From the NCBI RefSeq assembly GCF_013315695.1, contig NZ_CP054353.1: DNA of 64,000 bases. The stretch is one strand, 5' to 3'. Source of the DNA: Escherichia coli. GTDB taxonomy: Bacteria; Pseudomonadota; Gammaproteobacteria; Enterobacterales; Enterobacteriaceae. Below the pieces are notes generated by a model. The model saw only the letters and a program-made list of their open reading frames with translations. It did not search any database and had not been told where the DNA came from. Of this stretch, positions 14,740 through 57,782 are shown one piece after another; within the stretch, counting starts at the first letter, position 1; each line of letters starts with the position of its first letter. The translations under genes and the position numbers were made by a program.

Positions 14740-14826
14740 TGGTGCGAGGGGGGGGACTTGAACCCCCACGTCCGTAAGGACACTAACACCTGAAGCTAGC
14801 GCGTCTACCAATTCCGCCACCTTCGC
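14740..14826 (-). tRNA. leuV: tRNA-Leu (CAG), tandem copy 1
   Basis: Reverse complement reads GCGAAGGTGGCGGAATTGGTAGACGCGCTAGCTTCAGGTGTTAGTGTCCTTACGGACGTGGGGGTTCAAGTCCCCCCCCTCGCACCA, 87 nt; gene-name assignment among the copies is arbitrary. Confidence 0.95.
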
Positions 14827-14860
14827 ACAGTCATCTTACTTTTTTTGATATCGCCTCGTT

Positions 14861-14947
14861 TGGTGCGAGGGGGGGGACTTGAACCCCCACGTCCGTAAGG
14901 ACACTAACACCTGAAGCTAGCGCGTCTACCAATTCCGCCACCTTCGC
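14861..14947 (-). tRNA. leuP: tRNA-Leu (CAG), tandem copy 2
   Basis: Identical 87-nt sequence and identical 34-bp spacer to copy 1. Confidence 0.95.
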
Positions 14948-14981
14948 ACAGTCATCTTACTTTTTTTGATATCGCCTCGTT

Positions 14982-15069
14982 TGGTGCGAGGGGGGGGGAC
15001 TTGAACCCCCACGTCCGTAAGGACACTAACACCTGAAGCTAGCGCCTCTACCAATTCCGCCACCTTCGC
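14982..15069 (-). tRNA. tRNA-Leu (CAG)-like, divergent tandem copy 3 (88 nt)
   Basis: Same unit but with a 9-C run instead of 8 in the T-stem/acceptor region and one D-arm substitution (GGTAGAGGCGC versus GGTAGACGCGC). Confidence 0.75.
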
Positions 15070-15097
15070 CCAGTGCGAGCAATATCAACGTGGTTTT

Positions 15098-15184
15098 TGG
15101 TGCGAGGGGGGGGACTTGAACCCCCACGTCCGTAAGGACACTAACACCTGAAGCTAGCGCGTCTACCAATTCCGCCACCTTCGC
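15098..15184 (-). tRNA. leuQ: tRNA-Leu (CAG), promoter-proximal copy 4
   Basis: Identical 87-nt tRNA-Leu sequence; 28-bp spacer to copy 3. Confidence 0.95.
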
Positions 15185-50117: not shown

Positions 50118-50186
<69 letters not shown>

Positions 50187-50204: not shown

Positions 50205-50240
50205 AAAAAAGCCCGCACCTGACAGTGCGGGCTTTTTTTT
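50205..50240 (+). terminator. thr attenuator (rho-independent terminator)
   Basis: aaaaaagcccgcacctgacagtgcgggc followed by an 8-T run. Confidence 0.9.
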
Positions 50241-50266
50241 CGACCAAAGGTAACGAGGTAACAACC

Positions 50267-52729
50267 ATGCGAGTGTTGAAGTTCGGCGGTACATCAGTGG
50301 CAAATGCAGAACGTTTTCTGCGTGTTGCCGATATTCTGGAAAGCAATGCCAGGCAGGGGCAGGTGGCCACCGTCCTCTCTGCCCCCGCCAAAATCACCAA
50401 CCACCTGGTGGCGATGATTGAAAAAACCATTAGCGGCCAGGATGCTTTACCCAATATCAGCGATGCCGAACGTATTTTTGCCGAACTTCTGACGGGACTC
50501 GCCGCTGCCCAACCGGGATTCCCGCTGGCGCAACTGAAAACTTTCGTCGACCAGGAATTTGCCCAAATAAAACATGTCCTGCATGGCATTAGTTTGTTGG
50601 GGCAGTGCCCGGATAGCATCAACGCTGCGCTGATTTGCCGTGGCGAGAAAATGTCGATCGCCATTATGGCCGGCGTGTTAGAAGCGCGTGGTCACAACGT
50701 TACCGTTATCGATCCGGTCGAAAAACTGCTGGCTGTGGGGCATTACCTCGAATCTACCGTCGATATTGCTGAGTCCACCCGCCGTATTGCGGCAAGTCGT
50801 ATTCCGGCTGATCACATGGTGCTGATGGCAGGTTTCACCGCCGGTAATGAAAAAGGCGAACTGGTGGTGCTTGGACGCAACGGTTCCGACTACTCCGCGG
50901 CGGTGCTGGCTGCCTGTTTACGCGCCGATTGTTGCGAGATTTGGACGGACGTTGACGGGGTCTATACCTGCGACCCGCGTCAGGTGCCCGATGCGAGGTT
51001 GTTGAAGTCGATGTCCTACCAGGAAGCGATGGAGCTTTCCTACTTCGGCGCTAAAGTTCTTCACCCCCGCACCATTACCCCCATCGCCCAGTTCCAGATC
51101 CCTTGCCTGATTAAAAATACCGGAAATCCTCAAGCACCAGGTACGCTCATTGGTGCCAGTCGTGATGAAGACGAATTACCGGTCAAGGGCATTTCCAATC
51201 TGAATAACATGGCAATGTTCAGCGTTTCCGGCCCGGGGATGAAAGGAATGGTCGGCATGGCGGCGCGCGTCTTTGCTGCAATGTCACGCGCCCGTATTTC
51301 CGTGGTGCTGATTACGCAATCATCTTCCGAATACAGTATCAGTTTCTGCGTTCCGCAAAGCGACTGTGTGCGAGCTGAACGGGCAATGCAGGAAGAGTTC
51401 TACCTGGAACTGAAAGAAGGCTTACTGGAGCCGCTGGCGGTGACGGAACGGCTGGCCATTATCTCGGTGGTAGGTGATGGTATGCGCACCTTGCGTGGGA
51501 TCTCGGCGAAATTCTTTGCCGCGCTGGCCCGCGCCAATATCAACATTGTCGCCATTGCTCAGGGATCTTCTGAACGCTCAATCTCTGTCGTGGTAAATAA
51601 CGATGATGCGACCACTGGCGTGCGCGTTACTCATCAGATGCTGTTCAATACCGATCAGGTTATCGAAGTGTTTGTGATTGGCGTCGGTGGCGTTGGCGGT
51701 GCGCTGCTGGAGCAACTGAAGCGTCAACAAAGCTGGCTGAAGAATAAACATATCGACTTACGTGTCTGCGGCGTTGCCAACTCGAAGGCTCTGCTTACCA
51801 ATGTGCATGGCCTAAACCTGGAAAACTGGCAGGAAGAACTGGCTCAAGCCAAAGAGCCGTTTAATCTCGGGCGCTTAATTCGCCTCGTGAAAGAATATCA
51901 TCTGCTGAACCCGGTCATTGTTGACTGCACTTCCAGCCAGGCAGTGGCGGATCAGTATGCCGACTTCCTGCGCGAAGGTTTCCACGTCGTCACGCCGAAC
52001 AAAAAGGCTAACACCTCGTCGATGGATTACTACCATCTGTTGCGTCATGCGGCGGAAAAATCGCGGCGTAAATTCCTCTATGACACCAACGTTGGGGCTG
52101 GATTACCGGTTATTGAGAACCTGCAAAATCTGCTCAATGCTGGTGATGAATTGATGAAGTTCTCCGGCATTCTTTCAGGTTCGCTTTCTTATATCTTCGG
52201 CAAGTTAGACGAAGGCATGAGTTTCTCCGAGGCGACCACACTGGCGCGGGAAATGGGTTATACCGAACCGGACCCGCGAGATGATCTTTCTGGTATGGAT
52301 GTGGCGCGTAAGCTATTGATTCTCGCTCGTGAAACGGGACGTGAACTGGAGCTGGCGGATATTGAAATTGAACCTGTGCTGCCCGCAGAGTTTAACGCCG
52401 AGGGTGATGTCGCCGCTTTTATGGCGAATCTGTCACAGCTCGACGATCTCTTTGCCGCGCGTGTGGCGAAGGCCCGTGATGAAGGAAAAGTTTTGCGCTA
52501 TGTTGGCAATATTGATGAAGATGGCGTCTGCCGCGTGAAGATTGCCGAAGTGGATGGTAATGATCCGCTGTTCAAAGTGAAAAATGGCGAAAACGCCCTG
52601 GCCTTCTATAGCCACTATTATCAGCCGCTGCCGTTGGTACTGCGCGGATATGGTGCGGGCAATGACGTTACAGCTGCCGGTGTCTTTGCTGATCTGCTAC
52701 GTACCCTCTCATGGAAGTTAGGAGTCTGA
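50267..52729 (+). CDS. thrA: Bifunctional aspartokinase I / homoserine dehydrogenase I
   Basis: 820-aa from ATG 50267 ([17 protein letters not shown]). Confidence 0.97.
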
Positions 52730-55499: not shown

Positions 55500-56276
55500 T
55501 TAACGCTGCTCGTAGCGTTTAAACACCAGTTCGCCATTGCTGGAGGAAGCTTCATCAAAGAAGTAACCTTCGCTATTAAAACCAGTCAGTTGCTCTGGTT
55601 TGGTCAGCCGATTTTCAATAATGAAACGACTCATCAGACCGCGTGCTTTCTTAGCGTAGAAGCTGATGATCTTAAATTTGCCGTTCTTCTCATCGAGGAA
55701 CACTGGCTTGATAATCTCGGCATTCAATTTCTTCGGCTTCACCGATTTAAAATACTCATCTGACGCCAGATTAATCACCACATTATCGCCTTGTGCTGCG
55801 AGCGCCTCGTTCAGCTTGTTGGTGATGATATCTCCCCAGAATTGATACAGATCTTTCCCTCGGGCATTCTCAAGACGGATCCCCATTTCCAGACGATAAG
55901 GCTGCATTAAATCGAGCGGGCGCAGTACGCCATACAAGCCGGAAAGCATTCGCAAATGCTGTTGGGCAAAATCGAAATCGTCTTCGCTGAAGGTTTCGGC
56001 CTGCAAGCCGGTGTAGACATCACCTTTAAATGCCAGAATCGCCTGGCGGGCATTCTCCGGCGTGAAATCTGGCTGCCAGTCATGAAAGCGAGCGGCGTTG
56101 ATACCCGCCAGTTTGTCGCTGATGCGCATCAGGGAGCTAATCTGCGGGGGCGTCAGTTTCCGCGCTTCATGGATCAGCTGCTGGGAGTTGTCTAACAGCT
56201 CCGGCAGCGTATAGCGCGTGGTGGTCAACGGGCTTTGGTAATCAAGCGTTTTCGCAGGTGAAATAAGAATCAGCAT
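55500..56276 (-). CDS. yaaA: Peroxide stress resistance protein YaaA (DUF328)
   Basis: 258-aa [20 protein letters not shown]... Confidence 0.9.
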
Positions 56277-56345: not shown

Positions 56346-57782
56346 TTACTCCTGCGAAACGTCATCCCACGCGTCTGGAGAAAGCTGGCGACCGATCTCC
56401 GGATAACGCAACGGATCAAACACCGGGCGCACGCCGAGTTTACGCTGGCGTAGATAATCACTGGCAATGGTATGAACCACAGGCGAGAGCAGTAATATGG
56501 CGGTCAAATTGGTAATAGCCATGCAGGCCATTATGATATCTGCCAGTTGCCACATCAGCGGAAGACTTAGCAAGGTACCGCCGATGACCGTTGCGAAGGT
56601 GCAGATCCGCAGACACCAGATCGCTTTAGGGTTGTTCAGGCGTAAGAAGAAGAGATTGTTTTCGGCATAAATGTAGTTGGCAACGATGGAGCTGAAGGCA
56701 AACAGAATAACCACGAGGGTAACAAACTCCGCACCCCAGGAACCCATTAACACCCGCATCGCCTTCTGGATAAGCTGAATACCTTCCAGCGGCATGTAGG
56801 TTGTGCCGTTACCCGCCAGTAATATCAGCATGGCGCTTGCCGTACAGATGACCAGGGTGTCGATAAAAATGCCAATCATCTGGACAATTCCTTGCGCTGC
56901 CGGATGCGGAGGCCAGGACGCCGCTGCCGCTGCCGCTGCCGCGTTTGGCGTCGACCCCATTCCTGCCTCATTGGAAAACATACTGCGCTGAAAACCGTTA
57001 GTAATCGCCTGGCTTAAGGTATATCCCGCCGCGCCGCCTGCCGCTTCCTGCCAGCCAAAAGCACTCTCAAAAATAGACCAAATGACGTGGGGAAGTTGCC
57101 CGATATTCATTACGCAAATTACCAGGCTGGTCAGTACCCAGATTATCGCCATCAACGGGACAAACCCCTGCATGAGCCGGGCGACGCCATGAAGACCGCG
57201 AGTGATTGCCAGCAGAGCAAAGACAGCGAGAATAATGCCTGTCACCAGCGGAGGAAAATCAAAAGAAAAACTCAGGGCGCGGGCAACGGCGTTCGCCTGA
57301 ACTCCGCTGAAAATTATGCCGTAAGCGATGAGCAAAAAGAGGGCGAACAGAACGCCCATCCAGCGCATCCCCAGCCCGCGCGCCATATACCATGCCGGTC
57401 CGCCACGAAACTGCCCATTAACGTCACGTTCTTTATAAAGTTGTGCAAGGGAACATTCGGTAAACGAGGTCGCCATGCCGATAAACGCGGCAACCCACAT
57501 CCAGAAGACGGCACCTGGTCCACCGGCGGTAATAGCCAGCGCAACGCCAGCCAGGTTGCCGCTACCCACGCGCGCCGCAAGACTGGTACACAATGACTGA
57601 AATGAGGTTAAACCGCCTGGCTGTGGATGAATGCTATTTTTAAGACTTTTGCCAAACTGGCGGATGTAGCGAAACTGCACAAATCCGGTGCGAAAAGTGA
57701 ACCAACAACCTGCGCCGAAGAGCAGGTAAATCATTACCGATCCCCAAAGGACGCTGTTAATAAAGGAGAAAAAATCTGGCAT
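56346..57782 (-). CDS. yaaJ: Alanine/glycine:cation symporter family transporter
   Basis: 478-aa multi-TM ORF containing a poly-Ala stretch. Confidence 0.9.
   Translation of the reverse strand: MPDFFSFINSVLWGSVMIYLLFGAGCWFTFRTGFVQFRYIRQFGKSLKNSIHPQPGGLTSFQSLCTSLAARVGSGNLAGVALAITAGGPGAVFWMWVAAFIGMATSFTECSLAQLYKERDVNGQFRGGPAWYMARGLGMRWMGVLFALFLLIAYGIIFSGVQANAVARALSFSFDFPPLVTGIILAVFALLAITRGLHGVARLMQGFVPLMAIIWVLTSLVICVMNIGQLPHVIWSIFESAFGWQEAAGGAAGYTLSQAITNGFQRSMFSNEAGMGSTPNAAAAAAAASWPPHPAAQGIVQMIGIFIDTLVICTASAMLILLAGNGTTYMPLEGIQLIQKAMRVLMGSWGAEFVTLVVILFAFSSIVANYIYAENNLFFLRLNNPKAIWCLRICTFATVIGGTLLSLPLMWQLADIIMACMAITNLTAILLLSPVVHTIASDYLRQRKLGVRPVFDPLRYPEIGRQLSPDAWDDVSQE

What the first reader, a model, noticed from the sequence alone, without database searches (positions are those of the whole stretch)
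56921..56944. GCCGCT hexanucleotide repeat encoding a poly-Ala tract in yaaJ
gccgctgccgctgccgctgccgcg is a simple-sequence repeat inside the yaaJ coding region (poly-Ala in the protein). The ORF here is 478 aa, which is 2 aa longer than the 476 aa I recall for K-12, consistent with one extra repeat unit. Such repeats vary by slipped-strand mispairing while staying in frame.
Basis: partly seen in the sequence, partly recalled or inferred. Interest (0 to 1): 0.2.

Follow-up and report, generated by a model that had tools for sequence, protein, structure and literature searches.

The report
Extra alanine-repeat unit in yaaJ
A six-base repeat inside the E. coli alanine-transporter gene yaaJ carries one extra copy in this strain, giving eight alanines instead of the usual six; this is a real but rare and ordinary in-frame length variant of the kind produced by replication slippage.

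Summary
It encodes Ala281-Ala288 of a 478-aa yaaJ (56346-57782, minus strand). K-12 yaaJ is 476 aa with six Ala, exactly one GCGGCA unit fewer.

Among 5,424 complete E. coli genomes, 7 carry eight Ala and 4 carry four Ala. Essentially all the rest carry six; no 2- or 10-Ala allele appeared, and neither did the two 5- and 7-Ala forms probed.

The variants sit on at least ten different yaaJ haplotypes, counting the window's. All five tested differ from a common six-Ala allele by the 6-bp indel alone. That indicates recurrent gain and loss of one unit, not one allele spread by recombination. All ORFs stay intact, so this is not a phase-variable switch.

E. fergusonii, E. albertii, E. whittamii and Citrobacter keep six Ala with scrambled codons. 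Tract length is therefore conserved, and the repeat is an E. coli accident of codon choice.

The tract follows the substrate-binding FSNEAGxGS motif. The window's 20-residue segment is unique among 125 proteins compared across the family. Functional effect is untested.

Interest is low.

The parts
56346..57782 (-). yaaJ coding sequence, 478 codons plus stop; alanine/glycine:cation symporter (AGCS) family protein
   Evidence: ORF list. RefSeq annotation of the homologous gene in 5,424 E. coli genomes. Pfam PF01235, 486 bits. AgcS 6CSE, E = 8e-81. AlphaFold model pLDDT 93.9, matching 6CSE with TM 0.83/0.92. The exact protein is WP_174183202.1.
56919..56942 (-). Ala281-Ala288 codons: (GCGGCA)x3 + GCGGCG. 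One GCGGCA unit more than the common E. coli allele; which of the three units is 'extra' cannot be assigned.
   Evidence: Codon-by-codon translation. Comparison with K-12 and the nearest relative MS 21-1, both with (GCGGCA)x2 + GCGGCG.
56920..56942 (+). Perfect tandem repeat as seen on the + strand: GCCGCT, period 6, 3.8 copies
   Evidence: Tandem Repeats Finder, 100% matches. Longest lag-6 repeat in the window; none of 200 shuffles reached it.
56943..56978 (-). Codons for F269-N280 (FSNEAGMGSTPN). This is the conserved unwound substrate/Na+-binding segment immediately N-terminal to the Ala tract; S270 and E272 align with AgcS S274 and E276.
   Evidence: HMMER alignment to AgcS 6CSE. The AgcS preprint 10.1101/293811 states that Ser274 and Glu276 of TM7 contact the bound alanine and Na+. 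N271, E272, A273, G274 and G276 are invariant or nearly invariant in a 107-sequence family alignment.

Best explanation
The tract is a short coding microsatellite. In most E. coli the six-Ala stretch of YaaJ happens to be written as (GCGGCA)2GCGGCG or a near variant. During replication the nascent and template strands can misalign by one 6-nt unit, which adds or removes two alanines without changing the frame. The window's lineage carries one such gain, giving eight Ala and 478 aa. With only 2-3 units the event is rare. With an in-frame unit it does not switch the gene on or off. The extra two Ala lengthen the short helix and loop between the substrate-binding unwound segment (FSNEAGMGS) and the next transmembrane helix. 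The variant is probably neutral or mildly deleterious in a transporter whose proposed role overlaps that of another alanine importer, CycA.

Shown: the repeat, the allele series, its rarity, its recurrence on independent haplotypes, conservation of length in other species, and its position in the protein. Inferred: slippage as the molecular mechanism, and the fitness effect.
For: The repeat is perfect and non-random.

Allele series in 5,424 complete genomes:
- Eight Ala in 7 genomes: ECONIH4, ARS-C101, W24, UTAK-15, Z1323HEC0422, Z1323HEC0399, JCKP02.
- Four Ala in 4 genomes: MS10711, 30EVA1, A41, F719.
- All changes are exactly +/-6 nt, and every ORF is intact.

A distant-mode scan covered all 5,424 genomes at 80% of the query or more. 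Only one genome fell below 90% identity, which excludes +/-12-nt alleles and +/-6-nt alleles on the divergent haplotypes.

Evidence for independent events:
- Eight-Ala alleles lie 11-33 SNPs apart, and the ±30-nt flanks differ among backgrounds, five distinct flank-plus-tract haplotypes in all.
- The ARS-C101, UTAK-15 and Z1323HEC alleles each have many six-Ala sister alleles with zero SNPs (2615 bits = 1431 matches plus one 6-nt gap).
- The same holds for the four-Ala alleles of MS10711 and 30EVA1 (2604 bits).
- The window's nearest relative, MS 21-1, has six Ala and differs by 2 SNPs.

Evidence for heritability: the exact window protein, WP_174183202.1, occurs on 7-16 other contigs, and the five fetched differ by one synonymous SNP. 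Other variant proteins occur on up to 77 contigs.

Evidence for a length constraint:
- E. fergusonii, E. albertii, E. whittamii and C. farmeri all encode NAAAAAAS with different, non-repeating codons.
- The segment from the conserved GS to the conserved Q is 16 aa in 112 and 18 aa in 12 of 124 family representatives; it is 20 aa only in the window.

All 11 variant genomes derive from tract types that carry two perfect GCGGCA units.
Against: Slippage itself was not observed; unequal or illegitimate recombination between the same direct repeats would give identical products.

The census relies on 28-mer probes and identity bands rather than per-genome alignments, so a few alleles on unusual haplotypes could be missed. 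Alleles differing by 3 nt (5 or 7 Ala) were tested for only two specific sequences.

The absence of variants on the less repetitive tract types (c and d, roughly 1,300 genomes) is only weakly significant, since about 3 would be expected.

No functional data exist for any allele. The drop in AlphaFold confidence (block 281-290: pLDDT 81 against 96 in the isogenic six-Ala model) is what one expects for any insertion absent from the alignment, so it is not evidence of impaired function.
Confidence: 0.87

Rival explanations
1. The eight-Ala allele arose once and was moved between lineages by homologous recombination (gene conversion of a short patch), so repeat instability plays no role.
For: E. 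coli recombines frequently, and yaaJ haplotypes look mosaic. For example, the rare flank variant tcggcgccaaac is shared by JCKP02 (eight Ala) and F719 (four Ala).
Against: Among the eight-Ala alleles there are five distinct flank-plus-tract haplotypes within ±30 nt of the tract. Three eight-Ala alleles are identical over the whole 1.4-kb gene to common six-Ala alleles except for the 6 nt, which would require conversion tracts that carry no other marker. Contractions to four Ala also occur, on four further backgrounds.
Confidence: 0.04
2. The extra six bases are a sequencing or assembly artefact in a GC-rich repeat.
For: Short GC-rich repeats can be miscalled, and the variant is very rare (0.13% of genomes).
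Against: The identical 478-aa protein is recorded from NCBI, ENA and Logan on 7-16 independent contigs. Five fetched contigs from different samples all carry (GCGGCA)3GCGGCG. ARS-C101 (Texas) and W24 (Xinjiang) share an identical eight-Ala gene. Only +/-6-nt changes are seen, never frameshifts, in the fetched alleles.
Confidence: 0.02
3. Tract length is functionally tuned. Changing the spacer after the substrate-binding segment alters YaaJ transport, and the 4- and 8-Ala alleles are selected in particular niches; this would be a slow, in-frame contingency mechanism.
For: The tract directly follows the residues that bind alanine and Na+ in AgcS. The segment length is otherwise almost fixed in the family. 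Four of the seven eight-Ala genomes come from bovids (cattle, calf, veal, yak), and the sister alleles of two more lineages include bovine or STEC strains. Some variant proteins are seen on 46-77 contigs.
Against: Frequency is 0.2%, changes go in both directions, and no lineage shows a run of alleles. Other genera conserve six Ala through synonymous change, which indicates purifying rather than diversifying selection. The bovine excess is confounded by phylogroup, because the pure-repeat tract type predominates in the lineages sampled from cattle. There is no transport evidence.
Confidence: 0.05

Closest known systems
In-frame coding simple-sequence repeats (microsatellites) varying by slipped-strand mispairing in bacteria
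   Same: A perfect short tandem repeat inside an ORF. Alleles differ by whole units. The same change recurs on unrelated haplotypes. The frame is preserved.
   Different: There are only 2-3 units, so mutability is low: 99.8% of genomes share one length. No published description of this locus turned up in a full-text search for 'yaaJ'.
Contingency loci / phase-variable genes of Haemophilus, Neisseria and Campylobacter (established knowledge)
   Same: A simple-sequence repeat within a gene for a surface or envelope protein, changed by slippage.
   Different: In those loci the units are not multiples of three or sit in promoters, copy numbers are high, and switching is frequent and turns expression ON or OFF. 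Here the unit is 6 nt, every allele is an intact ORF, and variation is rare.
Poly-alanine tract length variants in eukaryotic proteins, encoded by GCN runs (established knowledge)
   Same: In-frame gain or loss of alanines within an Ala run encoded by mixed GCN codons. Length is otherwise conserved across species.
   Different: This is a bacterial membrane transporter, the change is only +/-2 residues, no phenotype is known, and no aggregation-type mechanism is implied.
AgcS, the Na+/alanine symporter of Methanococcus maripaludis (PDB 6CSE/6CSF)
   Same: Same family and fold: E = 8e-81, 39% identity, TM 0.83/0.92. Same FSNEAGxGS motif followed by an Ala run (AgcS has APIAAAAAKTDHP).
   Different: Between that motif and the conserved HP, the window's YaaJ has four more residues than AgcS, and the common E. 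coli allele has two more. YaaJ is only a 'proposed' alanine importer (PMC7373191).

Membership tests
Coding microsatellite with slippage-type length polymorphism | Perfect tandem repeat of a 1-6-nt unit, beyond chance | tested here: met
   TRF: period 6, 3.8 copies, 100% matches. None of 200 shuffles reached the observed run.
Coding microsatellite with slippage-type length polymorphism | Alleles in the population differ by whole repeat units | tested here: met
   Tracts of 12, 18 and 24 nt (4, 6 and 8 Ala) in fetched genomes. Probes for one 5-Ala and one 7-Ala form found nothing.
Coding microsatellite with slippage-type length polymorphism | Recurrent independent events (homoplasy) rather than a single origin | tested here: met
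   At least 6 backgrounds for eight Ala and 4 for four Ala. Sister six-Ala alleles with zero SNPs were found for all five alleles tested.
Coding microsatellite with slippage-type length polymorphism | Indel rate depends on the repeat (replication slippage shown directly) | not testable with these tools
   Needs mutation-rate assays with native and codon-scrambled tracts. The only hint is that all 11 variant genomes derive from tract types with two perfect GCGGCA units.
Phase-variable contingency locus | A change in repeat number shifts the reading frame or promoter spacing, switching expression ON/OFF | tested here: not met
   The unit is 6 nt. All 17 fetched alleles translate without stops to 474, 476 or 478 aa.
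Phase-variable contingency locus | High mutability: many repeat-number alleles among close relatives | tested here: not met
   11 of 5,424 genomes deviate from six Ala. The same variant protein is found on up to 77 contigs.
AGCS family, alanine/glycine:cation symporters (Pfam PF01235) - the host gene | Profile match above the curated threshold over the whole domain | tested here: met
   486.4 bits against a cutoff of 24, covering profile positions 7-392 of 392.
AGCS family, alanine/glycine:cation symporters (Pfam PF01235) - the host gene | LeuT-type fold with conserved substrate/Na+ site residues (AgcS S274, E276) | tested here: met
   S270 and E272 align to AgcS S274 and E276. The AlphaFold model matches 6CSE with TM 0.83/0.92 and rmsd 2.5.
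AGCS family, alanine/glycine:cation symporters (Pfam PF01235) - the host gene | Demonstrated cation-coupled alanine/glycine transport | not testable with these tools
   The literature calls YaaJ a proposed alanine importer alongside CycA (PMC7373191).

The most novel reading that the evidence does not exclude
The Ala-tract length acts as a slow, in-frame tuning knob for YaaJ. Adding or removing two residues right after the substrate-binding unwound segment would change alanine/glycine (or cysteine) uptake, and the 8-Ala and 4-Ala alleles would be maintained by selection in particular host-associated lineages, for example bovine ones.
Probability: 0.04. Interest if true: 0.45.

Novelty: new member of a known kind. 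Interest (0 to 1): 0.1.

Why it matters
It matters little. The locus is a clean, well-documented small example of how synonymous codon choice alone can create a mutable microsatellite inside a length-conserved protein segment. E. coli writes six Ala as a repeat and shows recurrent +/-2-Ala variants; the one sequence examined from each related species writes them with scrambled codons. The tract could serve as a minor typing marker, or as a natural allelic series (4, 6 and 8 Ala) for probing the spacer after the substrate-binding segment of an AGCS transporter. It raises no new biological question.

Tried and rejected
1. A first concatenated multi-probe query was mis-designed. Two probes shared 28-30-nt exact words with ordinary six-Ala alleles and flooded the output. 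It was redesigned after an in-silico longest-common-substring check and rerun. The failed run still gave rough counts of the two main tract types (about 2,600 GCG-type and about 1,490 GCT-type).

2. Hairpin or slipped-structure idea. The tract can be read as alternating CGG/CAG triplets, but single-strand DNA folding of either strand, for both the 8- and 6-Ala versions, is no more stable than dinucleotide shuffles (z = -0.34 to +0.87). No special secondary structure needs to be invoked.

3. Phase variation was rejected: the unit is in frame, all ORFs are intact, and variation is rare.

4. Artefact was rejected: there are multiple independent assemblies and samples.

5. A megablast scan with a 78-nt query missed about 900 genomes with divergent local haplotypes. 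It was repeated in distant mode, which covered all 5,424, and the haplotypes were inspected.

6. A literature search for 'yaaJ' found nothing on this repeat.

Full report
**Observation**

Tandem Repeats Finder calls a perfect period-6 array, GCCGCT x3.8, at 56920-56942.

It is the longest lag-6 repeat in the 64-kb window, with 17 consecutive self-matches. In 200 Markov shuffles the longest run averaged 7.9 and peaked at 13.

The only long ORF across it is 56346-57782 on the minus strand, 478 aa. On that strand, 56919-56942 reads GCG GCA GCG GCA GCG GCA GCG GCG, which is Ala281-Ala288, inside ...FSNEAGMGSTPN-AAAAAAAA-SWPPHPAAQG....

**Identity of the gene**

The ORF matches the gene annotated yaaJ (alanine/glycine:cation symporter family) in 5,424 of 5,426 complete E. 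coli genomes, at 97-99.4% identity. Other evidence agrees:
- Pfam Na_Ala_symp scores 486 bits against a cutoff of 24.
- The only solved relative is AgcS (6CSE), at E = 8e-81.
- An AlphaFold model (pLDDT 93.9) superposes on 6CSE with TM 0.83/0.92.
- The literature treats YaaJ, together with CycA, as a proposed alanine importer (PMC7373191).

**Comparison with K-12 and the nearest relative**

K-12 yaaJ is 1431 nt / 476 aa, and its tract is GCGGCAGCGGCAGCGGCG (six Ala). Outside the tract it differs from the window at 31 SNPs.

The closest complete genome, MS 21-1, differs by 2 SNPs and also has six Ala.

**Population census**

| Search | Result |
|---|---|
| 44-nt probe spanning the eight-Ala tract | 7 genomes: ECONIH4, ARS-C101, W24, UTAK-15, Z1323HEC0422, Z1323HEC0399, JCKP02. 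No hit longer than the 28-nt partial matches given by six-Ala alleles, so no ten-Ala allele. |
| Validated set of allele-specific probes | Four-Ala alleles in MS10711, 30EVA1, A41 and F719. Nothing for one 5-Ala form, one 7-Ala form or a further 8-Ala form. |
| Distant-mode scan with a 78-nt query | All 5,424 genomes covered at 80% or more; only MS10711 below 90% identity. This excludes +/-12-nt alleles and +/-6-nt alleles on the more divergent local haplotypes. |

Every sampled row other than MS10711 had the six-Ala length.

The local haplotypes seen were:
- a: GCGGCAGCGGCAGCGGCG
- b: GCGGCAGCGGCAGCTGCG
- c: GCAGCA... starts
- d: GCGGCAGCGGCGGCTGCG
- one strain with Ala->Thr inside the tract

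All fetched alleles are intact ORFs of 474, 476 or 478 aa. The estimate is six Ala in about 99.8% of genomes, eight Ala in 0.13% and four Ala in 0.07%.

**Independent origins**

Outside the tract, the eight-Ala alleles differ from one another by 11-33 SNPs. Their ±30-nt flanks also differ, giving five distinct flank-plus-tract haplotypes.

Whole-gene searches gave the same result for every allele tested:
- The ARS-C101, UTAK-15 and Z1323HEC0422 alleles each returned many six-Ala genomes at 2615 bits. That score is what 1431 identities plus a single 6-nt gap yield, so there are zero SNPs.
- The four-Ala alleles of MS10711 and 30EVA1 likewise have zero-SNP six-Ala sisters at 2604 bits.

None of the 51 genomes at 99% identity or more to the window's yaaJ is among the eight-Ala or four-Ala genomes found.

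Counting the window, that makes at least six separate gains and four separate losses of exactly one unit. A single origin spread by recombination would need marker-free conversion tracts in every case.

**Heritability and authenticity**

The window's exact protein is WP_174183202.1. It is recorded on 7 contigs in the cluster table, and 16 contigs were read in the locus look-up. Five fetched contigs from different samples carry the same 24-nt tract and differ from the window by one synonymous SNP.

Other variant proteins occur on 1-77 contigs. ARS-C101 (Texas cattle) and W24 (Xinjiang calf) share an identical gene. The alleles are therefore real and stably inherited, not flickering.

**Why E. 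coli, and what constrains the tract**

E. fergusonii, E. albertii, E. whittamii and Citrobacter farmeri all encode NAAAAAAS, but with scrambled codons (for example GCT GCC GCC GCA GCT GCA) that form no repeat. C. freundii has AAASAA and C. amalonaticus AAAAAS at the same length.

So the six-residue length is conserved through synonymous and conservative change. The microsatellite is a by-product of E. coli's particular codon choice.

I also measured the segment from the GS of the FSNEAGxGS motif to the conserved Q across 124 full-length representatives from the 50%-identity library. It is 16 residues in 112 of them and 18 in 12 (the YaaJ-like group). It is 20 only in the window.

In AgcS, Ser274 and Glu276 of this motif bind the substrate and Na+ (10.1101/293811). 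They align to S270 and E272 here.

In the AlphaFold models the tract forms a 5-6-residue helical turn between the unwound segment and the loop before the next helix. The 10-residue block containing it has pLDDT 81 in the eight-Ala protein, against 96 in an isogenic six-Ala version. That is the expected behaviour for an insertion absent from the alignment, and I do not treat it as functional evidence.

**Mechanism**

The best-supported reading is replication slippage at a 2-3-unit hexanucleotide repeat; unequal exchange between the same direct repeats would be equivalent. It occurs at a low rate and produces in-frame +/-2-Ala variants that are neutral or mildly deleterious in a transporter whose proposed role overlaps that of CycA.

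- The tract shows no unusual single-strand folding (z about 0 against shuffles).
- It does not meet the definition of a phase-variable contingency locus: there is no frameshift and no high allele diversity.
- An adaptive "tuning" role is not excluded but has no positive support. The apparent excess of bovine sources among eight-Ala genomes is confounded by phylogroup.

**Verdict**

This is an ordinary example of a known kind of polymorphism, documented here for yaaJ. Interest is low.

Noticed in passing
window 14740-15184 (minus strand): Four tandem tRNA-Leu(CAG) genes (period about 121 bp). Most complete E. coli genomes carry three at this locus next to yjjZ (span 529 against 651 bp), and sampled O157:H7 genomes show one. 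Only 43 records match at 99% identity or more; MSB1_4I, annotated with four copies, is 100% identical. This is a tandem copy-number polymorphism of the leuQPV-type tRNA array.
   Followed up: partly
window 50129-50160: A 12-bp repeat, CATTACCACCAC (2.7 copies), lies just upstream of the 834-aa ORF at 50225-52729. Its position and sequence fit the Thr/Ile codon run of the thr operon leader peptide (thrL). That identification is from memory and was not tested.
   Followed up: no
database proteins P0001, P0002, P0005-P0007 (not in the window): 758-aa E. coli ORFs carrying both Na_Ala_symp and the YaaA (PF03883) domain. In P0001, the one read, the YaaJ sequence runs through its usual stop position and the intergenic region into yaaA; in the window the two genes are separate (56346-57782 and 55500-56276).
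   Followed up: no
L029 (E. coli strain 23779, NZ_CM190130.1), yaaJ tract: An Ala->Thr substitution inside the tract (NAATAAAS; GCG->ACG). It shows that point changes in the tract also occur at six-residue length.
   Followed up: no
one search hits H35 (NZ_OZ121069.1) and H40 (Z1323HEC0393): One genome has a 1430-nt match, a possible 1-nt deletion or frameshift in yaaJ. Another matches in two pieces covering 92% of the gene, and shorter YaaJ proteins of 437-448 aa exist in the protein database. Occasional yaaJ disruption would fit a dispensable gene.
   Followed up: no
'on plasmids: 3 places': Three records labelled as plasmids carry a full-length yaaJ. These may be mislabelled replicons or large chromosomal fragments; they were not examined.
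   Followed up: no
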